A model generated the notes under the pieces. The model was not told where the DNA came from, made no database searches, and saw only the letters and a list, made by a program, of their open reading frames with translations. Below are positions 19,984 to 63,043 of a DNA stretch of 64,000 nucleotides, one piece after another. The stretch covers positions 8,288-72,287 of the forward strand of contig JAGWLV010000001.1 in assembly GCA_028864875.1 (NCBI GenBank), given 5' to 3'. Position numbers and translations under genes: made by a program. Positions within the stretch are counted from its first letter, which is position 1, and every line of letters begins with the position of its first letter. The stretch is from Patescibacteria group bacterium (GTDB taxonomy: Bacteria; Patescibacteriota; Minisyncoccia; Phycocordibacterales; SBAW01).

Positions 19984-20289
19984 TCAGCCCGGGTTGTACT
20001 TCGGGTCGGTGCCGAACGGCGCGCCGAGCGTGATGGTCTTGGTGTGAACGACCAGGCCAGCACCGGAAGCGTTGATGATCGGTTCGACCGGCATGTTCAG
20101 AACCGTACCACCGTCGAGTTTCAACACCGTGTCAGCGCCCGGAATGTAATAGAATCCGGTGCCGTAGAGACTGGAGACCTTCACATACTGGACCGGCTTG
20201 GCCTTGACGGGAAGATCGGCAGCGTACGCTCCGGCAGTAGCGACGAGACCCGCCGCCGTGCCCAACAATAGGCTCTTCACCATCTTCAT
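19984..20289 (-). CDS. Small secreted protein (101 aa); N-terminal 60 aa resemble Rhizobiales Porin_2-family OMPs
   Basis: SD GAAAGGA 6 nt upstream of ATG; signal peptide MKMVKSLLLGTAAGLVATAGAYA then ADLPVKAKPVQYVKVSSLYGTGFYYIPGADT, recalled as closely matching Bradyrhizobium/Brucella-type porin N-termini; remainder unrelated; own terminator. Confidence 0.55.
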   Translation of the reverse strand: MKMVKSLLLGTAAGLVATAGAYAADLPVKAKPVQYVKVSSLYGTGFYYIPGADTVLKLDGGTVLNMPVEPIINASGAGLVVHTKTITLGAPFGTDPKYNPG

Positions 20290-20492
20290 GGTGTATCCTT
20301 TCTCGCTTGTACGTCGTCTGGTCCTGTATAGCCAGGCACTTTTACTCTACACAATTAAGACCTCAGTCGCTAGGGGAGGGCGTGTATAAGAAAATGCCCC
20401 CGCTTGGTGATTCAAGCGGGGGCGGGGGACCATGCAGTGTCCTTTGGTTGTGCCGGTAATCACCCCGGCGGCGATTAGGCCGACCAGCCGGA

Positions 20493-20744
20493 CTAGGCCG
20501 GACAGTTCCGGTAGCTGCCGATCGTGGAGTTGATGGTACCGGTCACCGGGTCGCGGGTCACCTTGTTGACGGAGCCGAAGACGGCGCCGACAACGGCCGA
20601 GCCGAGCGACAGCGGACAGGTCAGGACGGAAGCGATGGTCGCTTGCTTGGGCTGCGCCTTCTTGGTGGCGTGCTTGGCGAAGGCCGGATTTCCGAGACTC
20701 AGGGCGACCGCCGCGGCGGTTGCGAGCAAAAGGACTTTTTTCAC
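20493..20744 (-). CDS. Small secreted protein (83 aa), hypothetical
   Basis: Perfect SD AAGGAGG 8 nt upstream of GTG start; signal peptide MKKVLLLATAAAVALSLGNPAFA; two Cys in mature part. Confidence 0.5.
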   Translation of the reverse strand: MKKVLLLATAAAVALSLGNPAFAKHATKKAQPKQATIASVLTCPLSLGSAVVGAVFGSVNKVTRDPVTGTINSTIGSYRNCPA

Positions 20745-21391
20745 GAGAAGAACCTCCTTGGTTTCAAGCGCCCTAAAGACGCGCCCGCACCTTACATGAA
20801 GGCGCTATGCAAGTCAAGACTCATAGTGAAAGCCCCCGACCTGCAACGCAGGCGGGGGCTCAGGTTGGCCGGAGTCGCACTCGCCGGCCGTGCTCTCAAC
20901 TGGAGCGTTTCCTCCCGCGACTAACTTGCGTGGTGGCCTAGGCGGCCATCGGCACTTGTTCGGTCTTTGGTTCGAAGTCGAAGCTCATTTGATTGCGCCT
21001 CATCACGAGCTCCTGGTAGTCCTCTTCGGACCGGATGCCCGCTTGGAGCACCGAGTCCGGTTCGATACCGTGGATGCCATACGCCTTGCCTTGCGGCACG
21101 GTGTGGCCCCGCAGACTTGTCGTACTCATCGAAGTGGATCCTCCTGCTATGGCCTTCCCGTATATGAAAAAGGCCGAAGAACTGCTCCATGCATCATCCC
21201 CAGGGTTATACACACCTGTAGGGCACGGACTGGAGATAGTAACCCACCCCTAGTGAGGTGTCAATGAAGCGGGGCGGGCAAAGAAAAAGGCCGGTAGTTT
21301 TTGTCCCTCCCGGCCTTCTTTACGTGCTATACGCTACACGTACGCAGTACTTGTACAAAACGCTTGTGACTCAACGCAAACGCTACATTAC

Positions 21392-21497
21392 GCGTGGATT
21401 TATGATGATACAAGGAGTGTATAAATAGTCAATGAAGACAAATGTGGATAACTCCCGACATCTGTGGATAACTTTGGCCGACGGGAAAAGTGGATTG
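21392..21497. promoter_or_regulatory. DnaA-box cluster (two perfect TGTGGATAA 9-mers plus two 1-2-mismatch boxes) next to an AT-rich stretch
   Basis: TGTGGATAA at 21443-21451 and 21463-21471; GTGGATTTA at 21394-21402; AGTGGATTG at 21489-21497; about 38% GC segment at 21340-21440. Confidence 0.55.
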
Positions 21498-21529
21498 AAA
21501 ATAAGGCGATTTTTTGCTAAAATGGTGAG

Positions 21530-45964: not shown

Positions 45965-48163
45965 CTACTCTTTTTTCTTGCGGGCGAAGCCGCGTTTCTT
46001 TTTGGGCTCCTTGAGGATTTCGAGCGCTCGCTCAAGAGTGATGTCGTACACCGAGTCGGTCTTCAGCGAGCGGAAGTCGGCATCGTGCACGATGTACGGG
46101 CCGAAACGCCCTACGCTCGCAGAAATCATTTTGCCCGACTCCGGGTGCACGCCGAGCTCGCGGGGGAGCGAAAGGTACTTCACCGCATCGGCCACCGTGA
46201 CTTCCTCCAGGTTTTTATCTTTGGGGATGCTCGCACGCTTGGGTTTGAGTTTACTGCCCTTCTTTTGCTCGCCCAATTGTACATATGGGCCGAAGCGTCC
46301 GCTCAAAACATAAATGTCCTCGCCCGACTCCGGATGTTTGCCGATGGGCTTAGAGGGTTCGTTGCTCAGCACCAGCCCTTCTGCAGTGCGCGCGCCGGTG
46401 CACTTCGGGAAGCGCGCGCAGGACATAAACTTGCCGCCGCGCGAGAGTTTGTACACCATCGTGCTCCCGCAGATAGGGCACATAAATTCCGCGGGTGCCG
46501 GACCCAAGTCGGTTATTTTGCCGGCCTCTTTGTCTTTTTTCTTAACTTCCTTTTGGAACGGGCCGTAAAAATCTTTGAGCGTTTTTTCATACTGCCGCTC
46601 GCCGCTCGCAATTTGGTCGAGCTCATCCTCCATCTCGGCGGTAAAGGTGTCTGAAATGTATGTGGGGAAGTAGGTCTCCAGGAACGTCGACACAACGTCG
46701 CCTGTGTCGGTCGGTTTGAGGCTCCGGCCCTCCTTTGTCACGTAGCCGCGTGCTTCGAGCGTGCGCATAATGCTCGCGTAGGTGGAGGGCCGGCCGATGC
46801 CGCGCTTCTCGAGCTCTTTGATGAGTCCCGCTTCGGTGTAGCGTGGCGGAGGTGTCGTCTGTTTTTCTTCCGAGGAGATGTCTTTGACCGCAAGCGTCTC
46901 GCCCCCGCTGACTTTGGGGAGCTCGACGTCCTCGCCGCGAGCGGCCACATCGGCCGCGAGCCACCCGTCGAAGATGACACGGCTGCCTGTCGCGGCAAAA
47001 GCCGGAATAGAAGTATCTTTCGTGTGCGCCTCGACTTTAGTGCGCATAATTTTGGCGTCGGCCATCTGGCTTGCCACGGTGCGGCGCCAAATCAATTCGT
47101 AAAGCTTTTTCTGCTCGGGGGTCGTGCCTGCGGCGAGCTTGTCGACGTGCGTGGGGCGGATGGCTTCGTGCGCTTCCTGTGCGTTTTTGCTCTTGGTGGC
47201 GAACACTCTAGGCTGCACGTACTCCTTGCCCCACTTCTTTTCTATGAGCCCGAGCATAGCTCCCCGCGCTCCCGCCGAAAGATTGAGCGAGTCCGTGCGC
47301 ATGTAGGTAATGTGCCCCGCTTCATAGAGCCGTTGGGCTATCTGCATCGTGCGGGAGGGCGAGAAGCCGAGCCGGCTCGAGGCCGACTGCTGGAGGGTCG
47401 AGGTGGTGAAGGGGGGGCGCGCGGCGCGCTTGGCCTCGGCCTCGGTCACGCTTGAAACGGTGAGCCCGTCTTGTTTAACCGCATCGAGTATCTTTTCGAC
47501 GAGTTTTTTGTCGCGCGGCTCCTCCGAACAGGTGAGCGTCAGGTCTGTTTTTGCTTTTGTCTTTGTTTGTGCGGTGATGACCCAAAAGGTCTCCGGCACG
47601 AAGGCGCGGATTTCGCGCTCGCGCTCCATCAAAATGCGCAGTGCGGGGCTTTGCACGCGCCCGGCGGAGAGGCCGTAGCGCACCTTCTTCCACACCAGGC
47701 CCGAGAGGTCGTAGCCCACCAAACGGTCGAGCACGCGGCGGGCTTCTTGCGCGTAGCGCAAGTTGTCGTCTATTTTGCGGGGAGACTTGAGCGCCTCGGC
47801 GATAGCCTCGGGCGTGATTTCATAAAACACGATGCGCTCCGGAGACTTCAACCCCAACTCCTGCGCAATGTGCCAGGCTATAGCCTCGCCCTCGCGGTCG
47901 GGGTCGGTTGCGAGGAGCACCCCGTCGGCTTTTGCGGCGAGCGAGGAGAGTTCGGAAATTACTTTCTGCTTGCCGGGCACGACCTCATAGTGGGGGACAA
48001 AACCGCCCTCGATGTCTATCGCTTTTTTATTGCTCTTGGGGAGGTCGCGCACGTGGCCCACCGACGCGCGTACGATAAAGTTACCCGAGGGGTCCACCTC
48101 GGACAGATACTTTTCAATAGTCTTCGCCTTTGCGGGCGACTCAACGATGACGAGTGTGGACAT
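45965..48163 (-). CDS. topA: DNA topoisomerase I
   Basis: TOPRIM N-terminus MSTLVIVESPAKAKTIEKYL, catalytic Tyr region, C-terminal Cys4 zinc ribbons. Confidence 0.9.
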   Translation of the reverse strand: MSTLVIVESPAKAKTIEKYLSEVDPSGNFIVRASVGHVRDLPKSNKKAIDIEGGFVPHYEVVPGKQKVISELSSLAAKADGVLLATDPDREGEAIAWHIAQELGLKSPERIVFYEITPEAIAEALKSPRKIDDNLRYAQEARRVLDRLVGYDLSGLVWKKVRYGLSAGRVQSPALRILMEREREIRAFVPETFWVITAQTKTKAKTDLTLTCSEEPRDKKLVEKILDAVKQDGLTVSSVTEAEAKRAARPPFTTSTLQQSASSRLGFSPSRTMQIAQRLYEAGHITYMRTDSLNLSAGARGAMLGLIEKKWGKEYVQPRVFATKSKNAQEAHEAIRPTHVDKLAAGTTPEQKKLYELIWRRTVASQMADAKIMRTKVEAHTKDTSIPAFAATGSRVIFDGWLAADVAARGEDVELPKVSGGETLAVKDISSEEKQTTPPPRYTEAGLIKELEKRGIGRPSTYASIMRTLEARGYVTKEGRSLKPTDTGDVVSTFLETYFPTYISDTFTAEMEDELDQIASGERQYEKTLKDFYGPFQKEVKKKDKEAGKITDLGPAPAEFMCPICGSTMVYKLSRGGKFMSCARFPKCTGARTAEGLVLSNEPSKPIGKHPESGEDIYVLSGRFGPYVQLGEQKKGSKLKPKRASIPKDKNLEEVTVADAVKYLSLPRELGVHPESGKMISASVGRFGPYIVHDADFRSLKTDSVYDITLERALEILKEPKKKRGFARKKKE

Positions 48164-48267
48164 ATATAGAGGCAGGTAATACCGTACTAGGGTAGCACAT
48201 GTCAAATCTGTGAACACGAAAAGGGCTCTGCAGAAGTGTGCAGAGCCCTGTGCCCGGTCCGCCGCAG

Positions 48268-48759
48268 TTATCCGCGGAAGGGGCGGTGTTCGCGACGATA
48301 GGCGGCAAGCGGTTGGAATGCCACACGGCTGTGATACGCGCAGTACGGCAGGCTCTTTGCAGCTTCGCCGCCGCAGAAAAAGAAGTCGCCCGAGCCTGGG
48401 TCGCCGACCGGCCAGCGGCACGTGTCTTCGGCCAGTTGCAGCAAAGTCTTGCGCTGCTCGACCGGAATCCCGAGCATTTCCGGTTCCGGCTCGTAGCCAT
48501 CGGGTTCGAGAGCGAGCGCGGTGTTGGCGCGCATCGACGGCCGCGAAACACGGAACATGCCCCCCGAACTGCGCGCTTTGCGCGGGCGCGGGGATGAACT
48601 CGACGGTGCCTTTGCCCGCCCGGAAAGCCCCATCCGGTGCACTTTGCCCATGACGCCATTGCGGGTTACGCCGCCTAGTTCGGCGGCGATTTGACTGGCG
48701 GAGAGCCCGTCAGCCCACAGCTTTGCACACAATGCGCTACGCTCTTCGGTCCATGACAT
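48268..48759 (-). CDS. gcrA: GcrA-family cell-cycle regulator homolog (164 aa)
   Basis: GGGAGG SD 5 nt upstream of ATG; N-terminal MSWTEERSALCAKLWADGLSASQIAAELGGVTRNGVMGKVHRMGL and C-terminal CRWPVGDP...DFFFCG...PYCAYHSRVAFQP match both conserved GcrA blocks. Confidence 0.8.
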   Translation of the reverse strand: MSWTEERSALCAKLWADGLSASQIAAELGGVTRNGVMGKVHRMGLSGRAKAPSSSSPRPRKARSSGGMFRVSRPSMRANTALALEPDGYEPEPEMLGIPVEQRKTLLQLAEDTCRWPVGDPGSGDFFFCGGEAAKSLPYCAYHSRVAFQPLAAYRREHRPFRG

Positions 48760-48819
48760 AGCGACCTCCCACTTGTGTTGCGTCAGCAATCAGCCGTTTT
48801 TAATATAGCCTTGATTTCC

Positions 48820-48839
48820 TGTGGATACCAAGTGGATAG
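48820..48839. promoter_or_regulatory. Two DnaA-box-like 9-mers (TGTGGATAC, AGTGGATAG) in the gcrA-like promoter region
   Basis: 8/9 and 7/9 matches to TGTGGATAA, 60-80 bp upstream of gcrA-like ATG; adjacent AACCTGTT direct repeat. Confidence 0.45.
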
Positions 48840-48899
48840 CCCAGTACAACCTGTTTGTAACCTGTTGGCAACAAACGCCCCACGGTGTGGGGCGTTTAT

Positions 48900-49181
48900 C
48901 TAGCGCACAGCACTCTTGAGACGCGCAAGCAGCGGGTCGTCCTTGGGTATGACGGGCATACGCTCCGAAGGAGCAGACACTATGCGGCGGGGGCGGAATT
49001 GATATGTCCCGTCAGGAGCTGCATCGGGACGGTACACGATACCTGCAACTTTGTTCCTATTAAGTCCTGCGCCCCGGATACGGCGGTTTACTTCTTCTGC
49101 GGTTTTGGAGTAGGACAACTCTTCAACCAATTGCAAAACAAGCCTTCGGACCTTCGGGGGATGGGCTTTTGGGATGGGCAT
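48900..49181 (-). CDS. Hypothetical protein (93 aa)
   Basis: AGGAGG SD 4 nt upstream of ATG (MPIPKAHPPK...); terminator downstream at 48873-48898. Confidence 0.5.
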   Translation of the reverse strand: MPIPKAHPPKVRRLVLQLVEELSYSKTAEEVNRRIRGAGLNRNKVAGIVYRPDAAPDGTYQFRPRRIVSAPSERMPVIPKDDPLLARLKSAVR

Positions 49182-49234: not shown

Positions 49235-50098
49235 CTACACACGTTCGACTTTCCCCAACCTTTCAACAATGAGGCCGCGGATAAGGAGCGAGGAGAGCGC
49301 CACGTTTGCCTCTTGGGCCGAGAGCCCCGAGTGCTCGATAAGCTCGTCGCGCACCAAGGGCTCGACGAGCGCGTGGAGCGTCTTCATCTCCGAGGGGGAT
49401 AGGTCGGTGGGGAGCGTAGTTTGGGTCGGTTTGTCGGAGGGTTTGAGGTTGAGCGCCTGGAGCACATCGTCTGCATTGCGCACCAAGGTCGCCCCGTCGC
49501 GGATGAGCTGGTTGACCCCGGCACCTGTCTCGCGCCCCAACTCGTGGGGCACGGCCAAAACCTCGCGGTTGTAGTCGAGCGCCAGGCGCGCCGTGATGAG
49601 CGTGCCCGACTTTTCGCCCGCCTCGATGATGAGCGTGGCGCGGCTCATCCCTGCGCCGATGCGGTTGCGCTTGGGGAAGTCGTGAATCATCGCCTTGTGC
49701 GCAGTGCCGTACTCGCTCACAAGCGCGCAGCCGCGCGCAAGGATGCGCGCGGCGAGCGCTCTGTTGGTCGACGGATAGATGGAGCGGTCGTCGAGCGAGG
49801 AGGGGAGCACCGCAATGGTCGGCAAGCCGACATCGAGTGCGCTCGTGTGCGCTTGCGAGTCGATACCGAGCGCCATGCCCGAGACTATCGCGACGTTGTA
49901 CCCCGCGAGCCCGGAGATAATACTCATGCACATGCGCCGGCCGTACGGAGTTGTTGCGCGGCTCCCGACCACGCACAGGTACTCGCAGTCCTTCGGCGGC
50001 ATCTTCCCGCGCACATAGAGCTCCGCGGGCATGTCGGGTATCTCGCGCAGCATGGGCGGGTAGTCTTTCTGCGCGAGCCGCTTGATAGGGTGGTCCAT
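49235..50098 (-). CDS. dprA: DNA processing protein DprA (Smf)
   Basis: Rossmann-like DprA core GLALGIDSQAHTSAL...LPSSLD and C-terminal winged helix. Confidence 0.85.
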   Translation of the reverse strand: MDHPIKRLAQKDYPPMLREIPDMPAELYVRGKMPPKDCEYLCVVGSRATTPYGRRMCMSIISGLAGYNVAIVSGMALGIDSQAHTSALDVGLPTIAVLPSSLDDRSIYPSTNRALAARILARGCALVSEYGTAHKAMIHDFPKRNRIGAGMSRATLIIEAGEKSGTLITARLALDYNREVLAVPHELGRETGAGVNQLIRDGATLVRNADDVLQALNLKPSDKPTQTTLPTDLSPSEMKTLHALVEPLVRDELIEHSGLSAQEANVALSSLLIRGLIVERLGKVERV

Positions 50099-56118: not shown

Positions 56119-57411
56119 CTACTCCATCGTCACTTTCTTGTCTTTCAGGAATAACTTGCTCTGCAAGCATCCAAGCAATTCCCGTTTCTCTACCAGGGTT
56201 CCTTCCCTGAGCAGGTACTTCGTGTAATTCCGAACGTCCACGTCTATCTCGACTTTGTCCTGCTTGTGCCCGAGTACTCCTGACTGAAATTTGTTGAACC
56301 GCCGTATTTCTTCTTCGATCCGTGTCCGTACTCCCAACTCATCCAAATTTACCGTATCCATCAATCCAATTAGTTCATCAATCAGGCTCGGCTCGTTGAT
56401 CGGTGGATTCTTGCAATCGATATTCCGAGCCTTTGTGCAGAAGTAATATACATGGCGATTCACACCGCCACTCTTGAGCTTCTTGAATTTTTCGTCAGCT
56501 GATATACCCGAGCCGCAGTAGCCGCATCGCACGAGCTTGGTGAAGGCGAACTCCTTGCTCTCGGTTTTGGGTATGAAATTTTCGTTGAGCGTCATCTGTA
56601 CCTTCTCATACAGCTGTTTGTCGATGATTGGCGTATGCTTGCCGGTGTACCATTGACCACCCCCGACCGGGTATTCAAATTCACCCGAGTAGAAGGGGTT
56701 CCGCAGAATGACGTAGACATTCGCGAGCACGAGCGGTTTTCCTCCCGTTGTTTTGAAGTCAATCTCTCGGAGCCATCGGTATACTTTCCGTCCGCTCCAC
56801 TGTTCGTGCGCTACCTTCTCGAACATCTGTTTGATCACAGGCGCGCGCTTTGGGTCGATCCGGCACTGACATTTCTTGTCGACATGCTTTTCATTGAGAT
56901 ACCCAGTCGGGGCAGGGCCGGGCCTCCAACCCATCTCGCATCGTGTTCTCAGCCCGCGCTTCACGTTTACCGCCTTGTTGTCGTTTTCGAGCTTCGCCTG
57001 CGAACCCAGAATCATTAGTAGGAATTTTTCGTTCGGATTGTTTGTGAATCTCTGTCCGTATGTACGGATTTCATGGAGTAACTTTTGGTCCATCAGGTCC
57101 ACGACTGACCCCAGGTCACCGGCATTGCGACTCAGGCGATCTGGTGCCCACGTGAGTATTGCGTTGAACTTCTTCGACCGGATATCCTCCAACATTTGGT
57201 TGTAGACCGGACGTTGGCCGACCTCTTTAGATGAGTGGGCCTCACGCTTAATCTCGACAATATGCAAACACTCTCGCTCGGCTAGCGCCTGCATTTCTTT
57301 CACCTGGCTCTCGATTGATAATGCTTGCTTATCTTCCGCCTCAGTACTTTTGCGTGCATAGAGGCAGTACCGTAAGGCCTCCTGTGGTTGTGTTTTTTCC
57401 ATACACCACAA
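56119..57411 (-). CDS. Large serine recombinase (phage-integrase type)
   Basis: Resolvase catalytic domain YARKSTEAE...SIESQ, recombinase domain, C-terminal zinc ribbon CGYCG...YYFC; 430 aa; AT-rich codon usage. Confidence 0.9.
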   Translation of the reverse strand: MWCMEKTQPQEALRYCLYARKSTEAEDKQALSIESQVKEMQALAERECLHIVEIKREAHSSKEVGQRPVYNQMLEDIRSKKFNAILTWAPDRLSRNAGDLGSVVDLMDQKLLHEIRTYGQRFTNNPNEKFLLMILGSQAKLENDNKAVNVKRGLRTRCEMGWRPGPAPTGYLNEKHVDKKCQCRIDPKRAPVIKQMFEKVAHEQWSGRKVYRWLREIDFKTTGGKPLVLANVYVILRNPFYSGEFEYPVGGGQWYTGKHTPIIDKQLYEKVQMTLNENFIPKTESKEFAFTKLVRCGYCGSGISADEKFKKLKSGGVNRHVYYFCTKARNIDCKNPPINEPSLIDELIGLMDTVNLDELGVRTRIEEEIRRFNKFQSGVLGHKQDKVEIDVDVRNYTKYLLREGTLVEKRELLGCLQSKLFLKDKKVTME

Positions 57412-57927
57412 GGAATGACGCCACCCTCCTGAGGAGTCCAGGACTCCTCAGGAGGTGGAAGTAGATAACATTTGACTCCTCAAGGAAGCCCTATATACTT
57501 GGGGTATGAGTCTACCGATCCCTAAAGAGCCGACCGACGTCAAAGATTGGATCCACCGGATTGAAGGAATGGGAGGTAAGTCTGGTGAGATCAATTGGGA
57601 TTCTCTGAACGTTTGGTACGGGAACAAATTGCCACAATACTTGTGGAATGAATGGAAGGACTCACTCAAACCCTCAGGAGGGTGAGCTCCGCCTCAACTC
57701 GCGCTTGCTTAAGGCGCTTCACAAATATTGCTCGTTCATTGGTATGAATGGACTTCTTCATACCTATAAGCCTGTATTCCGTATTGGGATATTCCAAAGT
57801 GGAATATCCCATGCTATGCTTGAAATGGCCCCGTTAGGGCACTGTTGGTAACTCCGCTTCGCAAGGCCTTGAAACTAAGTTAGGAAACACAAAGTCAGTC
57901 TTTATTAGCTCATATTTAGTAAGTGCT

Positions 57928-58479
57928 ATGGACACAGAAGTAAAACCCAAGAAGAAGTTTTATAAGCGCTGGTGGTTCTGGGTCGGTGCCGTTCTTGTGC
58001 TGTTCGTGATTATCGGCATGAGCGGCAATTCAACACCTACCACGAGCGTTCCGGCTCCTAACGAAAGCGCTGGTACCGCCTCAGCGCAAACTCAAGCCGC
58101 GCCTGAGCAAAAGTCGGTGCCTGCCCCAACAGAGTCCCAATCAGCTCCTGCCCCCTCGCAGCCGATCAGTAAGCCTGCACCGGCTCCTGCCGCCATGCAG
58201 ACCCTGCTCGATATCTCCGGCAGCGGCAGCAAGACGACTGAGTCGTTCACGGCTGCCGGCGCGTGGAATCTCATCTGGAGCTACGACTGCTCTAACTTCG
58301 GCAGCAAAGGCAACTTCCAGGTATTTATCTACGACGGCAACGGTAACATGTCGTTCGACAACTCAGGTGTGAACCAACTTGGCGCTTCCGGATCAGATAC
58401 CGACTACTATCACGTGGGTGGCACCTACTACCTCGAGGTCAACTCCGAGTGTAGCTGGCATGTCACCGTGAAAGGCTAG
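57928..58479 (+). CDS. Membrane-anchored secreted protein with Pro/Ala-rich linker and C-terminal beta domain, hypothetical
   Basis: N-terminal Lys-rich tail and TM; architecture like prophage-encoded surface or exclusion proteins (DUF4352-like, tentative). Confidence 0.45.
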   Translation: MDTEVKPKKKFYKRWWFWVGAVLVLFVIIGMSGNSTPTTSVPAPNESAGTASAQTQAAPEQKSVPAPTESQSAPAPSQPISKPAPAPAAMQTLLDISGSGSKTTESFTAAGAWNLIWSYDCSNFGSKGNFQVFIYDGNGNMSFDNSGVNQLGASGSDTDYYHVGGTYYLEVNSECSWHVTVKG

Positions 58480-58533
58480 TGTAGACAACTCGCTTCGCAA
58501 TACCTCCGTTCTAAGCTGGAATGGAGGTGTTGC

Positions 58534-58740
58534 ATGTCCATACTGTCACCACAAAGCGCTTGCGAACTTCGTCGGATCATCAAAGAGTCGACCGGTCGCG
58601 ACATCTCGCAGGGTGAGGCCTACGCCATCTGGCACTACCTCATCAAACTTCTCCAGCTCTTGTGGCGCGTAGAAACACGCAAAGAGATACCGCCTCCGCC
58701 TCATCAGCTCAGCCTATTTCACTCTAGCAAGAAGCCTTAG
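58534..58740 (+). CDS. Hypothetical small protein (68 aa)
   Basis: ORF only. Confidence 0.3.
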   Translation: MSILSPQSACELRRIIKESTGRDISQGEAYAIWHYLIKLLQLLWRVETRKEIPPPPHQLSLFHSSKKP

Positions 58741-58754
58741 AACTTTCTGCTGCA

Positions 58755-59648
58755 CTACAACGACTTCGAGTACGCGTCCCAGTCAATGTCTCCGTTCGGC
58801 TTTTTGAAGTACTCAAGGATTGCGGCCCGTTGCGCTCGCTCTTTGATCTCCGCCTCTTCGCGCTCCTTGCGTTCCTGCTCTTGTTGGTACAGGGCAATGT
58901 CATCTCTAATAGCCTGTAGACGCATGTAGTTATTGTTGCGTAGTCCTTCGGGCAACATATCAATTACCTGGCGCACGTCATCAGGCGAAAGCCGGTCCAA
59001 CTTCGGCCCCGCAGCGTCACGCTTCTCTTTGATGCGCTGGGCATAATCGAGCCAGAGCTTTTGGCTTCGTAGATTGCCACCTCGAGCTGAGGTGTAGATC
59101 TCGCCAAGTACGTCACCGGTCTTGAAGATGATCCAGTCTTCTCGGAGCGCGGCGACACGTTGCCCGAAGTCTGCACGTTGTGCCCAGGCATCGAGCAATC
59201 GTAGGCTCGGAACGCCGTACATCTTGCAGAACTGCTCGCGCGTTTGAACGCCGCGCCAGGAGCGCTCTTCGGGCGTGAGGGCGCTCCAAAGCACGAACTG
59301 CTCATACGCTTCGGCATCAGAGAGTATCTCTGGCACCGGGTGCATAGAGGCGGGTTCCGACCGTTCAGGAGCTTTCTTGTAAGGAGCTACGTTGTGCTCA
59401 AGGTAGTACCTGATAAGACGGGAGTCGCCCTCGCTGATCTTCTTGAGGAACGCCGCCGATACACGGTCGTCGGTCGTATCTTTGCCGGAGCGCCGGGCCG
59501 CGTCCGCCTTCTTGTGGAAGTCGAGGTCGCTCTTGTAGTGGCGATCGTAGAACATGCGGGACACACCCGCTCGCTTGCAGGCGACCGTAATGGTGTGTCC
59601 TTCGGCGAGGGCACTGAGAAGTACCGATACCTGATCATGCTTGTGCAT
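58755..59648 (-). CDS. HTH-domain protein resembling phage terminase small subunit / DNA-binding regulator
   Basis: N-terminal HTH ALAEGHTITVACKRAGVSRMFYDRHYKSD, second HTH-like region, Glu/Arg-rich C-terminal coiled coil; 14-nt overlap with MTase gene. Confidence 0.45.
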   Translation of the reverse strand: MHKHDQVSVLLSALAEGHTITVACKRAGVSRMFYDRHYKSDLDFHKKADAARRSGKDTTDDRVSAAFLKKISEGDSRLIRYYLEHNVAPYKKAPERSEPASMHPVPEILSDAEAYEQFVLWSALTPEERSWRGVQTREQFCKMYGVPSLRLLDAWAQRADFGQRVAALREDWIIFKTGDVLGEIYTSARGGNLRSQKLWLDYAQRIKEKRDAAGPKLDRLSPDDVRQVIDMLPEGLRNNNYMRLQAIRDDIALYQQEQERKEREEAEIKERAQRAAILEYFKKPNGDIDWDAYSKSL

Positions 59649-60498
59649 GGATCTTTACGCGCTTCTTACCAGAGAACTTTTCCCAGCGATTGAGGATGAC
59701 CTCGGCGTATGTTGGGACCTTCTCCATGAGGAAGCAGCGCCTGCCGAGTGTGTTGGCAGCGATGAGCGTCGATCCACTCCCGCCGAAGGGCTCAATGATG
59801 AGCTGCCCGCGTTTGGTGAGCGTCTTGACGTAGGGCAAGAGAATTTCGATCGGCTTCACGCCATAGATGATCGCTTGCCCAGACGACTTCTCATCAGCGG
59901 CATTGAACTCGATGAAGTCCGTTGGACAGTACTTCTTGTTCTTGCCGTAGTTCTCCCAATGGGAACCTTTGCCTTGGATCGCGAAGAGTGCGGTCTCGTA
60001 CTGGTTCTCGTACAGCCCATCCTCGGGCTCAAGATTGAGGCCACTGTGCTCCTCGCTCGTGCCTACCATCGCAATGTCGTGTTTTGAAAACAAGACATTC
60101 TTGCCGGCATAGCCCTGATTCCTCGTGGGTAGGTGCCAGACGATCATGTTGCGTACCTTCCAACCCTGCTTCTCGATGACGTCCCACTGCTCGCGGATGT
60201 TGCGCCAGTTTTCGTAGGAGATGATGGAGAAGTCCCTGTTGGCAACCCTAGCAACATTACCCATCCACTTTTCAACGAAGTCCGGCGGCAGTTCCTCGGT
60301 CTCGAGGTATCGGCGATTTCTTTTTGCACCGAAGCCGACGGTGGGGTTGCCGTTGCGCGTTTTGCCCTTCAGGTAACTGAGCCGGTACGGCATGTCAGTC
60401 ATGCACATGTCCGCTTTCTCATCACCCATGAGCAGAAGCACGTCGGCTTCGGCGGTTGAGTCGCCGCACATGAGCCGCGACCCGTCGAGGTCGTACAC
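59635..60498 (-). CDS. Beta-class DNA amino-methyltransferase (N6-A or N4-C), orphan
   Basis: Motif IV TDMPY (DPPY variant) precedes motif I EPFGGSGST, the beta-class order; ParB-MTase-like N-terminus; GTG start. Confidence 0.8.
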   Translation of the reverse strand: MYDLDGSRLMCGDSTAEADVLLLMGDEKADMCMTDMPYRLSYLKGKTRNGNPTVGFGAKRNRRYLETEELPPDFVEKWMGNVARVANRDFSIISYENWRNIREQWDVIEKQGWKVRNMIVWHLPTRNQGYAGKNVLFSKHDIAMVGTSEEHSGLNLEPEDGLYENQYETALFAIQGKGSHWENYGKNKKYCPTDFIEFNAADEKSSGQAIIYGVKPIEILLPYVKTLTKRGQLIIEPFGGSGSTLIAANTLGRRCFLMEKVPTYAEVILNRWEKFSGKKRVKIHAQA

Positions 60499-61788: not shown

Positions 61789-61958
61789 CGGCCAAACAGC
61801 CCACCCCCGCTACCCCTGTGCGCACCAACCATGCCTACGGCAAGGGTCCTGTGTGGCGCGAGACCAAATCGATCATTGTGATGTGCGTCTGCGGAAACAA
61901 GTACATCAAGACCCGTCCCGGACAGAGCACCTGCATCCGCTGTCTCCACAAGCACTAA
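61789..61958 (+). CDS. Possible small zinc-ribbon protein (about 56 aa)
   Basis: GTG-start ORF ending MCVCGNKYIKTRPGQSTCIRCLHKH (CxC...CxxC); weak RBS. Confidence 0.3.
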
Positions 61959-61996
61959 GCGCCGCGGGGTTTTTGCGCCGTATACTTATATATGTG

Positions 61997-63043
61997 AAGC
62001 GCCTTCAGAGCCGCGGTTTTACTCTCGTCGAAATTCTCATCACGATTGCAATTATTGCGGTCCTCACCGGCATTATCCTCATGGTGGTCAATGGGGCCAA
62101 GGGCAAGGCCCGCGACGCCAGGCGCCTTGTGGACCTCCACTCGCTCGCGCTCGGGCTCCAAGTCTATTTCAACGAAGTGGGGCACTATCCCGTTACCGAC
62201 GGGTGGGTCAGCGAGTGCGATACGCCCACGGGCAATTGGATACCCGACAGCGGTGACTACACGTGGAATGTCAAAGACCTCCCGCAGGTCCCGCGCGACC
62301 CGCTCGCGATGGGCTGCGCCCCGGGGAGCCCGTACCACTACTCCTACATAAGCACCGACGGCAAAACGTATCAATTGAGCACGCAGCTTGAGTATCCGAC
62401 GCCGGGCATCAGCAACAGCTCCGGCCCGTACGCGTTCAACGGTTCGTACTTCCAGGCCGACACGTCGCCCGTTGCGGTGAACTTCAGCACGAATGCGCAG
62501 AATCCCACGTCACAAAATCCGATCCCGCTGACTGTGTCCTTCTCCCGCGCCGTGGTCGACTTTACCCAGGCGAGTCTCTCCGTATTGCGCGGCTACATCA
62601 GCAGCTTTACTCAAGTGCTTGCGTCGCTCTTCAATATTCAAGTTACGCCGACGGACAACGACCAGGTGGTCGTGAGCATCACGGGCGGCACGGTGCATGA
62701 TGTCAACGGCGTGGGCAACACATCGGCGCAATTTTCAATCACGTACGACTCGCTTTTGCCGCACCCCGCGCTCTCGCCAGACCCGCTCCCCGGCACCGTG
62801 CAGGGCTCTTTCCAGGTGTCGGTCAACTTTACCGTTGCGGTGATCGACTTTTCAGCCGCAGATATTTCGATACAAAACGGCTCGGTGAGCACCTTAACTG
62901 GCAGCGGCAGGGACTACACCTTCACCGTTGTGCCCTCCTCGCCGGGAGTGGTGTCGGTCTTCATACCCTCCGGCGTGACACACAGCGCCGCGGGCAACGG
63001 CAACGTCGCTTCAAACCATATAAGTACCACGTACCAACCATAG
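61997..63043 (+). CDS. Type IV prepilin-like protein with two C-terminal Ig-like repeats
   Basis: Prepilin leader MKRLQSRG|FTLVEILITIAIIAVL (cleavage/methylation motif), then two ~90-aa repeats with shared FT/VS pattern; GTG start. Confidence 0.7.
   Translation, partial: KRLQSRGFTLVEILITIAIIAVLTGIILMVVNGAKGKARDARRLVDLHSLALGLQVYFNEVGHYPVTDGWVSECDTPTGNWIPDSGDYTWNVKDLPQVPRDPLAMGCAPGSPYHYSYISTDGKTYQLSTQLEYPTPGISNSSGPYAFNGSYFQADTSPVAVNFSTNAQNPTSQNPIPLTVSFSRAVVDFTQASLSVLRGYISSFTQVLASLFNIQVTPTDNDQVVVSITGGTVHDVNGVGNTSAQFSITYDSLLPHPALSPDPLPGTVQGSFQVSVNFTVAVIDFSAADISIQNGSVSTLTGSGRDYTFTVVPSSPGVVSVFIPSGVTHSAAGNGNVASNHISTTYQP

What the first reader, a model, noticed from the sequence alone, without database searches (positions are those of the whole stretch)
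48268..48872. GcrA-family cell-cycle regulator with DnaA-box-like motifs in its promoter, in a non-alphaproteobacterial-looking genome
The 164-aa protein matches both conserved GcrA blocks: N-terminal MSWTEER...LWADGLSASQIA..LGGVTRN.V.GKVHR.GL and C-terminal C.WP.GDP...DF.FCG...PYC..H...A.QP. It has a strong SD and its own promoter region. By established knowledge GcrA is essentially restricted to Alphaproteobacteria and their phages, where it binds sigma70 and reads CcrM-methylated GANTC sites, and where DnaA activates gcrA transcription. Here two DnaA-box-like 9-mers (TGTGGATAC, AGTGGATAG) lie 60-80 bp upstream. The surrounding genes (short ValRS, S1 and IF-2, VirB2-like pilins) look CPR-like, so this is probably horizontal acquisition, possibly together with regulatory logic, from an alphaproteobacterial host or its phage.
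Basis: partly seen in the sequence, partly recalled or inferred. Interest (0 to 1): 0.75.

Follow-up and report, generated by a model that had tools for sequence, protein, structure and literature searches.

The report
Alphaproteobacterial GcrA gene domesticated in CPR bacterium
An ultra-small "candidate phyla radiation" bacterium carries an intact GcrA regulator gene taken from soil Alphaproteobacteria, in a chromosomal slot where its relatives hold other, separately acquired GcrA genes, so this "alphaproteobacteria-only" regulator has spread further than assumed.

Summary
Window 48268-48759 (-) encodes a 163-aa full-length GcrA (Pfam PF07750, E=2.5e-49; Caulobacter GcrA PDB 7YE1, E=1e-33). 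A pair of DnaA-box-like 9-mers sits 61-80 nt upstream.

- **Host genome:** it is CPR/Patescibacteria. The adjacent TopA is 74-80% identical to Ca. Adlerbacteria/Paceibacterota, with conserved synteny on both sides.
- **Origin:** the GcrA is 74-79% identical to chromosomal GcrA of Pseudolabrys/Xanthobacteraceae. Known phage copies reach only 31% or less.
- **Age:** the transfer is old and domesticated. Similarity stops at the CDS ends, synonymous sites are saturated, dN/dS is 0.08-0.18, and GC3 matches the host.
- **Same slot in relatives:** the dprA-topA slot holds other GcrA-family genes in related CPR genomes. These do not group together (CPR monophyly 0/200 bootstraps). One of them is sister to a different alphaproteobacterial GcrA (200/200).
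- **Regulation:** it was not co-transferred. Donor promoters are GANTC-rich and almost free of DnaA boxes. The CPR promoter has no GANTC, and its box pair is shared with a sister CPR locus.
- **No CcrM signature:** the window has no CcrM ortholog and no GANTC depletion, and methyl-pocket residue I37 is M.

The verdict is a new member of a known family in an unexpected phylum, of moderate to high interest.

The parts
48268..48759 (-). gcrA CDS, 163 aa. It has an N-terminal HTH DNA-binding domain (residues 1-45) and a C-terminal CCCH zinc sigma70-interacting domain.
   Evidence: Pfam PF07750 E=2.5e-49. PDB 7YE1/5YIU/5YIX matches. 74-79% identical to Xanthobacteraceae GcrA.
48765..48769 (-). Shine-Dalgarno GGAGG, 5 nt before the ATG.
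   Evidence: Sequence read.
48802..48831 (-). Predicted sigma70-type promoter: -35 TTGGTA, 18-nt spacer, -10 TATATT.
   Evidence: Consensus scan, 1 found against 0.4 expected. Consensus match only.
48820..48828 (-). Proximal DnaA-box-like 9-mer GTATCCACA (8/9 to TTATCCACA). It overlaps the -35 hexamer.
48831..48839 (-). Distal DnaA-box-like 9-mer CTATCCACT (7/9), 11 bp upstream of the proximal box in the same orientation.
   Evidence: L083 has the same arrangement, TTATCCACA-AC-TTGTACACA.
48222..48249 (-). Intrinsic terminator of gcrA: 11-bp stem followed by TTTTCGTGTT.
   Evidence: RNA fold -28.4 kcal/mol, z=-5.1.
48873..48897 (-). Hairpin terminator ending the upstream dprA-orf93 unit. It insulates gcrA.
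   Evidence: Inverted repeat I4. RNA fold -23.5 kcal/mol, z=-5.5.
48176..48205 (-). topA promoter (TTGACA, 18 nt, TATTAC) downstream of the gcrA terminator. It is conserved in CPR loci whose slot is occupied.
   Evidence: Alignment A2 shows TTTGACATGTG...GT...GGTA shared by the window, L083, L166, L170 and L082. Coordinates.
48900..49181 (-). orf93, an orphan small ORF between dprA and gcrA with its own GGAGG. It may be a degenerate GcrA-DBD-like HTH protein native to the slot.
   Evidence: No Pfam or NCBIfam hit. hhalign alone gives 9.8% probability. A profile of four slot ORFs against GcrA gives 87.6%, E=3.5e-6, but the selection was post hoc. The AF2 model is unusable, pLDDT 46.
49235..50098 (-). 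dprA, the upstream border of the slot.
   Evidence: Pfam DNA_processg_A E=2.6e-65. 66-74% identical to DprA of CPR loci L081-L083, L166 and L170.
45965..48163 (-). topA (732 aa), the downstream border of the slot.
   Evidence: Pfam. Best hits 74-80% identical, named Ca. Adlerbacteria / Paceibacterota / Patescibacteria. Start codon fixed.

Best explanation
This is a genuine GcrA-family gene, encoding an RNA-polymerase sigma70 cofactor with an N-terminal HTH DNA reader and a C-terminal CCCH zinc sigma-binding domain. A Xanthobacteraceae-like alphaproteobacterium (Pseudolabrys group) donated its coding sequence to a CPR/Patescibacteria bacterium of the Adlerbacteria/Paceibacteria type.

The gene sits as its own transcription unit (promoter, SD, terminator) in the dprA-topA slot. 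In related CPR genomes that slot holds other GcrA-family genes or fragments. The event is therefore best read as a further capture, or in-place replacement, within a slot that already housed GcrA-type genes.

The transfer is old. The gene has taken on host codon composition and stayed under purifying selection, so it is used by the CPR cell.

**Inferred mechanism**
- The protein binds the CPR primary sigma factor through its zinc domain and adds sequence-specific DNA contacts to the holoenzyme.
- It does so without CcrM-type GANTC methylation. The window shows no CcrM signature, and the methyl-pocket residue I37 is replaced.
- Its own expression comes from a CPR-side promoter whose -35 region is overlapped by two DnaA-box-like sites. 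This would tie GcrA levels to DnaA and replication status, a wiring that resembles Caulobacter but arose on the recipient side.

**Shown:** family membership, CPR host, alphaproteobacterial origin, slot recurrence, long residence and selection, promoter non-homology to donors.
**Inferred:** sigma binding in CPR, methylation independence, DnaA control.
For: **Family.** PF07750 at 168 bits. Full-length alignment to Caulobacter GcrA 7YE1. All four zinc ligands are kept, and so are the DNA-contact residues M1, W3, W15, S20-S22, T32, R33, N34, G38, K39, H41 and R42 (residue roles from PMC5887438).

**Host.** TopA best hits are CPR. The order dnaX/parB-like/dus/ftsQ-like/serS/dprA/topA/relA-spoT/parB/miaA is collinear with CPR contigs L081-L083. 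The window holds 14 tRNAs in 64 kb.

**Donor.** The top 120 homologues are 69-79% identical, and those that carry a name are all Pseudolabrys. The species-genome scan also finds Xanthobacteraceae and other Hyphomicrobiales. P0006 lies in an argD-argF-hslO context. The NJ tree nests the window protein inside that set.

**Not an artefact.**
- Similarity is limited to 48269-48762 at 72-77% nt identity.
- GC3 is 0.71 against 0.82-0.93 in donors.
- dS is 1.07-2.4 and dN/dS 0.08-0.18.
- No flanking repeats.

**Slot recurrence.** GcrA genes lie between dprA and topA in L083/L084 (two independent assemblies), L166 (Parcubacteria Gr01-1014_56), L170/L171 and L093. L082 has a SID-only mini-protein there (hhalign 94%).

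**Independent origins.** L083+P0253 (alphaproteobacterial context) groups 200/200. Window+L083 groups 0/200, and all CPR copies together 0/200. Within CPR, L166 against L170 gives dN/dS 0.21 with dS similar to the flanking dprA.

**Regulation.**

**No CcrM signature.** GANTC O/E is 0.89, rank 7 of 16 palindromes, against 0.63 and rank 1 in donor loci. GANTC density is 2.61/kb in coding sequence against 3.06/kb in the remaining, unannotated sequence. The only PF01555 methylase scores 45 bits against the CcrM cut-off of 830.

**Methyl pocket.** I37 is M here, while I is 100% in the close set and 90% in the wider set. The other CPR lineages have N34S plus I37L. Caulobacter I37W is methylation-independent.
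Against: - No functional data exist.
- The CPR rpoD, dnaA and the rest of the genome are outside the window, and no fetched locus holds rpoD. Sigma compatibility and absence of CcrM genome-wide are therefore untested.
- The window-type GcrA is a singleton, one protein on one contig, so read-level support for the junctions could not be checked.
- DnaA-box matches are 8/9 and 7/9 only. The motif could belong to another factor, and L166, L170 and L093 lack it.
- I37M is a conservative change and its effect is unknown.
- Why independent xenologs land in the same slot is unexplained. No mobile-element marks were found.
- The NCBIfam equivalog cut-off is not reached (144 against 280 bits), although genuine Xanthobacteraceae GcrAs also fail it at 159-169 bits.
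Confidence: 0.7

Rival explanations
1. Assembly chimera or contamination. Alphaproteobacterial gcrA reads were spliced into a CPR contig, perhaps through k-mers shared with a resident GcrA-like gene.
For: The protein is a singleton on one contig. It is far closer to Pseudolabrys than to its CPR neighbours' copies. Coverage could not be checked.
Against: - Both flanks are CPR and collinear with CPR relatives.
- The best nt identity to any alphaproteobacterial gene is 77%, with third positions only 41-52% identical.
- GC3 is host-like.
- The gene has CPR-type flanking signals, including the topA promoter shared with L083, L166 and L082.
- Other CPR assemblies from independent samples carry GcrA genes in the same slot.
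Confidence: 0.03
2. One reading: a recent one-off transfer of gcrA together with its DnaA-dependent promoter from an alphaproteobacterial host or its phage.
For: Alphaproteobacterial origin. DnaA-like boxes are present. DnaA activates gcrA in Caulobacter (PMC8203912).
Against: - No similarity to donors outside the CDS.
- Donor promoters have GANTC sites and almost no DnaA boxes.
- The box pair is shared with a CPR sister locus that carries a different xenolog.
- dS is saturated.
- Phage copies are <=31% identical.
- The slot is occupied in several CPR lineages.
Confidence: 0.05
3. Host-directed mimic. The CPR cell is an epibiont of Xanthobacteraceae-type hosts and keeps a host-like GcrA to act on the host's sigma70 and methylated promoters, as large Caulobacter phages are thought to do. 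Each CPR lineage re-captures the gene of its current host.
For: - Two CPR lineages hold xenologs from different Hyphomicrobiales lineages in the same slot.
- The protein stays 74-79% identical to donors despite saturated dS.
- A second Bradyrhizobium-type DNA remnant, a porin 5' fragment, lies in the same contig.
- Phage GcrA-like genes are described as host-takeover genes (PMC13459779).
Against: - No signal peptide or known secretion tag.
- The gene is driven by a housekeeping-style CPR promoter.
- Older CPR copies (L166, L170, L093) have drifted to 34-36% identity with the window protein yet remain under selection. That fits use with CPR machinery.
- I37M and Y148F depart from otherwise near-invariant donor residues.
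Confidence: 0.1
4. A neutral passenger on its way to decay. The gene was acquired by DNA uptake, is not integrated into CPR regulation, and will degrade as the porin fragment did.
For: Patchy distribution. The slot is empty in L081 and many others, and it holds truncated forms in L082 and L093. A decayed alphaproteobacterial porin fragment lies in the same contig.
Against: The ORF is intact with an SD, a promoter and a terminator. dN/dS is 0.08-0.18 with saturated dS, and codon composition is ameliorated. All zinc ligands and nearly all DNA-contact residues are kept.
Confidence: 0.07

Closest known systems
Chromosomal GcrA of Xanthobacteraceae (Pseudolabrys spp.), Hyphomicrobiales
   Same: 74-79% amino-acid identity over the full length. 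Same length (161-163 aa) and the same C-X14-C-X10-C-X2-H spacing, with D at the Caulobacter-G129 position.
   Different: - Genomic context is dprA-topA in a CPR genome instead of argD-argF-hslO / phoB.
- The promoter lacks GANTC and has DnaA-like boxes.
- GC3 is 0.71 against 0.82-0.93.
- L11C, A35G, I37M, L43M and R154Y depart from residues that are >=99% conserved in the close set. Y148F departs from one that is 97% conserved.
Caulobacter crescentus GcrA (PDB 7YE1, 5YIV, 5YIX)
   Same: Two-domain architecture. The DBD aligns with Caulobacter residues 1-45 without gaps. The CCCH zinc finger is kept, as are the sigma-contact residues W120, D124, F130, F132 and Y142.
   Different: - I37M in the m6A pocket.
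- K119R and Y151F.
- One extra residue between the second and third cysteine.
- No CcrM partner or GANTC bias in the window.
- The host lacks the alphaproteobacterial CtrA/CcrM circuit, as far as the 64 kb shows.
GcrA-like proteins of Caulobacter phages (phiCbK group)
   Same: Same Pfam family, and likewise found outside a cellular alphaproteobacterial chromosome.
   Different: Only 29-31% identity. The window gene is chromosomal, sits between housekeeping genes, and has no phage genes nearby.
GcrA-family genes in the dprA-topA slot of other CPR genomes (L083/L084, L166 = Parcubacteria Gr01-1014_56, L170, L093; SID-only in L082)
   Same: Identical chromosomal position, own terminator, and a conserved downstream topA promoter.
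   Different: Only 34-51% identical to the window protein. They have separate phylogenetic placements. L166, L170 and L093 lack the DnaA-like boxes.

Membership tests
GcrA (Pfam PF07750) | Match to the family HMM above the gathering score over the full length. | tested here: met
   168.1 bits against 26.9, profile positions 1-153 of 155.
GcrA (Pfam PF07750) | N-terminal HTH DNA-binding domain with the base- and backbone-contact residues R33, N34, K39, R42, W3, W15, S20-S22, T32 and H41. | tested here: met
   All are present. Residue roles come from PMC5887438. The DBD aligns with 5YIU at E=5e-16.
GcrA (Pfam PF07750) | m6A-reading pockets formed by R33, N34, I37 and G38. | tested here: inconclusive
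   R33, N34 and G38 are kept. I37 is M, a residue seen in 0% of the close set and 1% of the wide set. The effect is unknown. I37W makes Caulobacter GcrA methylation-independent.
GcrA (Pfam PF07750) | C-terminal CCCH zinc finger (C-X14-C-X9-C-X2-H) with sigma70-contact residues. | tested here: met
   The window has C-X14-C-X10-C-X2-H, the same spacing as donors. W, D, F, F and Y are kept. K119R, Y151F and G129D differ, and G129D also occurs in donors.
GcrA (Pfam PF07750) | Physical binding to region 2 of the primary sigma factor. | not testable with these tools
   No rpoD in the window or in any fetched CPR locus. This needs a two-hybrid or pull-down experiment.
GcrA/CcrM epigenetic module of Alphaproteobacteria | Presence of a CcrM orthologue that methylates GANTC. 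| tested here: not met
   Within the 64 kb only. The sole PF01555 methylase (59635-60498) scores 45 bits against the CcrM equivalog cut-off of 830. The rest of the genome was not seen.
GcrA/CcrM epigenetic module of Alphaproteobacteria | GANTC is under-represented genome-wide and enriched in intergenic DNA, with GANTC sites in the gcrA promoter. | tested here: not met
   - O/E is 0.89, rank 7 of 16, against 0.63 and rank 1 in donor loci.
- Density is 2.61/kb in coding sequence against 3.06/kb in the remaining, unannotated sequence.
- There is no GANTC in the 200 nt upstream, against 1-6 per 300 nt in 81 of 81 donor loci.
- The signature is defined in PMC3973325.
NCBIfam NF050816 (sig70cofacGcrA, equivalog) | Score above the curated equivalog cut-off of 280 bits. 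| tested here: not met
   144.2 bits. Genuine Xanthobacteraceae GcrAs also fail at 159-169 bits, so the cut-off is narrower than the family.
Caulobacter-type DnaA control of gcrA | DnaA boxes in the gcrA promoter that are bound by DnaA. | tested here: inconclusive
   A pair of 8/9 and 7/9 boxes overlaps the -35 hexamer. Such pairs occur 3 times against 0.13 expected, and the same layout is present in L083. Perfect boxes elsewhere in the window show that the canonical motif is used. Binding was not tested.
Patescibacteria/CPR host genome | Flanking housekeeping genes are closest to CPR, with conserved CPR synteny. | tested here: met
   TopA is 74-80% identical to proteins named Adlerbacteria, Paceibacterota or Minisyncoccia. 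Synteny is shared with L081-L083 and L166. The NCBI source name is a Patescibacteria group bacterium.

The most novel reading that the evidence does not exclude
A clade of CPR bacteria keeps a dedicated chromosomal slot (dprA-topA) for GcrA-type sigma cofactors and repeatedly refills it with the gcrA of the Alphaproteobacteria it lives with. Two readings follow.
- The xenologs run a minimal DnaA-to-GcrA cell-cycle circuit that works without CcrM methylation.
- Alternatively, they act as host-matched mimics on the host's transcription.
Either way, the xenolog would point to the identity of the CPR organism's bacterial host (here Pseudolabrys/Xanthobacteraceae).
Probability: 0.12. Interest if true: 0.85.

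Novelty: new member of a known kind. Interest (0 to 1): 0.6.

Why it matters
GcrA is treated as a hallmark of alphaproteobacterial cell-cycle control, read together with CcrM methylation. In the held library no paper mentions GcrA together with Patescibacteria or CPR.

This case shows the regulator can be moved into a very distant, genome-reduced phylum and be rewired onto a recipient promoter. It has then been kept under selection, apparently without its methylation partner.

The recurrence of independently derived copies in one slot gives three things:
- a natural experiment on how portable a sigma70 cofactor is;
- a testable candidate for a rare transcription regulator in CPR cells, which have few;
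- a possible genomic clue to which bacteria these uncultured CPR organisms associate with. A Bradyrhizobium-type porin remnant lies in the same contig.

Tried and rejected
- **Exact-protein contig look-up for the window GcrA:** nothing on record.
- **GANTC depletion:** dinucleotide shuffles suggested it (174 observed against 243 expected). A higher-order Markov control with 15 other palindromes made it ordinary (O/E 0.89), so it was rejected as a CcrM signature.
- **The PF01555 methylase at 59635-60498 as a CcrM candidate:** it is only distantly related and lies in a low-GC recombinase island. Rejected as a partner, though its specificity is unknown.
- **Structure prediction of orf93 without an alignment:** pLDDT 46, unusable, so no fold search was run.
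- **orf93 and the L173 192-aa ORF against the GcrA profile:** not significant alone (probabilities 9.8% and 3.5%). Only a post hoc pooled profile reached 87.6%.
- **Mosaic or recombination signal inside the CDS:** sliding identity against the donor and against L083 showed no clear pattern.
- **Flanking direct repeats or mobile-element marks around the gcrA unit:** none convincing.
- **Homology of the promoter to donor upstream regions:** none. Alignment of CPR upstream regions was poor apart from the shared box layout.
- **rpoD in the window and in all CPR loci:** absent.
- **Phage and plasmid sources:** <=31% and <=43% identity.
Full report
**1. What is at the coordinates**

The minus-strand ORF 48268..48759 encodes 163 aa beginning MSWTEER.
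- It matches Pfam GcrA PF07750 over the whole model (168 bits, E=2.5e-49).
- It aligns end to end with Caulobacter crescentus GcrA in PDB 7YE1 (E=1e-33). It also aligns with the separately crystallised DNA-binding and sigma-interacting domains.

The gene is a self-contained unit:
- GGAGG lies 5 nt before the ATG.
- A sigma70-like promoter is predicted, with -35 at 48826-48831 and -10 at 48802-48807.
- A strong terminator lies behind the gene at 48222-48249, and another at 48873-48897 closes the upstream unit.

They share one orientation, lie 11 bp apart, and overlap the -35 hexamer.
- One near-consensus box is not significant on its own (10 against 6.1 expected).
- Such a pair is significant (3 in the window against 0.13 expected).
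- The window also holds two perfect TGTGGATAA boxes at 21443-21471, so the canonical motif is in use in this organism.

**2. Whose genome is this**

The adjacent TopA (45965..48163) has best hits at 74-80% identity. All named ones are Ca. Adlerbacteria, Paceibacterota, Minisyncoccia or Patescibacteria.

The gene order dnaX, parB-like, dus, ftsQ-like, serS, dprA, [slot], topA, relA/spoT, parB, miaA is the same as in CPR contigs L081-L083 and L166. The window packs 14 tRNAs and mostly housekeeping genes into 64 kb.

NCBI holds the exact protein as MDE2071178.1 from a 'Patescibacteria group bacterium' MAG, on a 75.7-kb contig. The whole-genome-is-alphaproteobacterial refutation therefore fails.

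**3. Where the gene came from**

The 120 best homologues are 69-79% identical. Every one of them that carries a name is Pseudolabrys. The species-genome scan adds Xanthobacteraceae and other Hyphomicrobiales at 58-78%.

One of the closest, P0006, lies in the argD-argF-hslO neighbourhood typical of that order. In an NJ tree of 84 family members, the window protein nests inside this set. Known phage copies are <=31% identical and plasmid copies <=43%.

The transfer is not recent:
- DNA similarity to donor genes is 72-77% and ends at the CDS borders.
- Third codon positions are 41-52% identical, and dS is 1.07-2.4.
- dN/dS is 0.08-0.18.
- GC3 (0.71) matches the host rather than the donors (0.82-0.93).

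These facts, together with CPR flanks on both sides, argue strongly against a chimeric assembly. Read coverage could not be examined.

**4. The surprise: the slot is recurrent**

Anchoring on TopA, I fetched CPR loci from public assemblies. Between dprA and topA the loci show the following.

| Locus | Content of the dprA-topA slot |
|---|---|
| L083/L084 (same sequence, two independent assemblies) | 204-aa PF07750 GcrA |
| L166 (Parcubacteria group bacterium Gr01-1014_56) | 185-aa GcrA |
| L170/L171 | 202-aa GcrA |
| L093 | 169-aa GcrA plus a 104-aa DBD-only ORF |
| L082 (Adlerbacteria) | 102-aa protein with only the zinc SID (hhalign 94%) |
| L081, L087-L090, L092, L101, L104, L117 | No room for a gene in the gap; in L081 dprA abuts topA |
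| L091, L094, L102 | A gap with unrelated ORFs, not GcrA |
| L173 and the P0124 locus | Small unassigned ORFs |

The terminator and the topA promoter (TTTGACATGTG...) downstream of the slot gene are conserved among the occupied loci.

The CPR copies are nevertheless not each other's relatives:
- Window against L083 is 51% identical, and window against L166 or L093 is 34-36%. DprA and TopA of the closer genomes (window, L081-L083, L166, L170) are 66-84% identical.
- L083's protein is 76% identical to P0253, which sits in an alphaproteobacterial apaG-hslO-argF-argD / phoB-phoU-pst context.
- Bootstrap support is 200/200 for L083+P0253, 0/200 for window+L083, and 0/200 for CPR monophyly.

At least two xenologs, and probably three or more, have entered the same slot. 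Within CPR, L166 against L170 shows vertical descent with dN/dS 0.21. I found no repeats or mobile-element marks that explain the targeting. Replacement of a resident homologue is the simplest idea, but it is unproven.

**5. Regulation was not imported**

Donor-type gcrA upstream regions (81 loci, 300 nt each) all hold 1-6 GANTC sites. Only 5 hold a DnaA box with <=1 mismatch, at scattered positions.

The window promoter has no GANTC. Its DnaA-like pair is mirrored in L083 by TTATCCACA-AC-TTGTACACA directly after the dprA stop, with the same spacing and orientation and again overlapping a plausible -35.

The DnaA-like wiring therefore belongs to the CPR side. It resembles DnaA activation of gcrA in Caulobacter (PMC8203912), but convergently. 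L166, L170 and L093 lack the boxes.

**6. No sign of the CcrM partner**

With a Markov control, GANTC is unremarkable in the window (O/E 0.89, rank 7 of 16). It is the most depleted palindrome in the donor loci (0.63), the known signature of CcrM-bearing genomes (PMC3973325). There is no marked enrichment outside annotated genes.

The only beta-class methylase (59635-60498) is not a CcrM orthologue and sits in a low-GC recombinase island.

The protein keeps every DNA-contact residue except I37, which forms the floor of one m6A pocket and is M here. The other CPR lineages have N34S plus I37L. In Caulobacter, filling this pocket (I37W) gives activity on unmethylated promoters. Methylation-independent use in CPR is thus a reasonable but untested inference.

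**7. Mechanism proposed**

The protein pre-binds the CPR primary sigma factor through the CCCH domain and lends the holoenzyme an extra HTH reader. Its level is set by a promoter that DnaA may occupy. Sigma binding could not be assessed because no rpoD is available.

**8. Comparison and novelty**

It is a member of the GcrA family by every sequence test. It is not part of a GcrA/CcrM module as far as the window shows.

Databases already label such proteins in two CPR MAGs. No paper in the library links GcrA with Patescibacteria or CPR.

I class it as a new member of a known kind. The added, unreported pattern is recurrent xenolog capture in one slot.

Noticed in passing
window 19984-20289 (-), similarity confined to 20129-20290: A 101-aa ORF whose first ~60 residues are the signal peptide and N-terminus of an alphaproteobacterial Porin_2 porin (Pfam E=7.5e-13, profile positions 1-38 of 357). 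It is 75% aa and 77.8% nt identical to the 5' end of a 523-aa Bradyrhizobium porin gene. This is a decayed second piece of Hyphomicrobiales DNA in a CPR contig.
   Followed up: partly
window 21194-21500: A cluster of DnaA-box-like sites: two perfect TGTGGATAA (21443-51, 21463-71), two GTGGATT, and a further pair at 21194/21206. It lies in a 1.7-kb stretch without a convincing gene, upstream of an MBL-fold gene and gyrA. It could be oriC or a DnaA-controlled promoter.
   Followed up: partly
window 56119-60498: A low-GC island (GC 0.49 at 56-58 kb). It holds a large serine recombinase (56119-57411), two unassigned ORFs, and a beta-class N6/N4 DNA methylase (59635-60498) only distantly related to CcrM. 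It is probably an integrated mobile element.
   Followed up: partly
window 48900-49181 (-): orf93, an orphan small ORF with its own GGAGG between dprA and gcrA. It carries an HTH-like stretch (LSYSKTAEEV...LNRNKVAGIVYR) that recalls the GcrA DNA-binding helix. Support is weak alone and 87.6% only in a pooled post hoc profile.
   Followed up: partly
L082 5555-5863; L093 3588-3902: Single-domain relatives of GcrA in the same CPR slot. L082 has a 102-aa protein with only the CCCH sigma-interacting domain (hhalign 94%). L093 has a 104-aa protein with only the DNA-binding domain (79%), next to a full-length copy.
   Followed up: partly
L167 5001-5591: A 196-aa GcrA-family protein (P0250) on a 68-kb contig among RecT, SSB and primase-like genes. 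This is a phage-like context with an unknown host.
   Followed up: no
window 61853-63043 (+): A type IV pilin-like protein, with a prepilin N-methylation motif plus Big_12 Ig-like domains. The small secreted ORF at 20493-20744 gave only a non-significant TrbC/VirB2 hit, E=0.26.
   Followed up: no
window, whole: 14 tRNA genes are scattered through 64 kb of mostly translation, replication and division genes, as expected for a very small genome.
   Followed up: no
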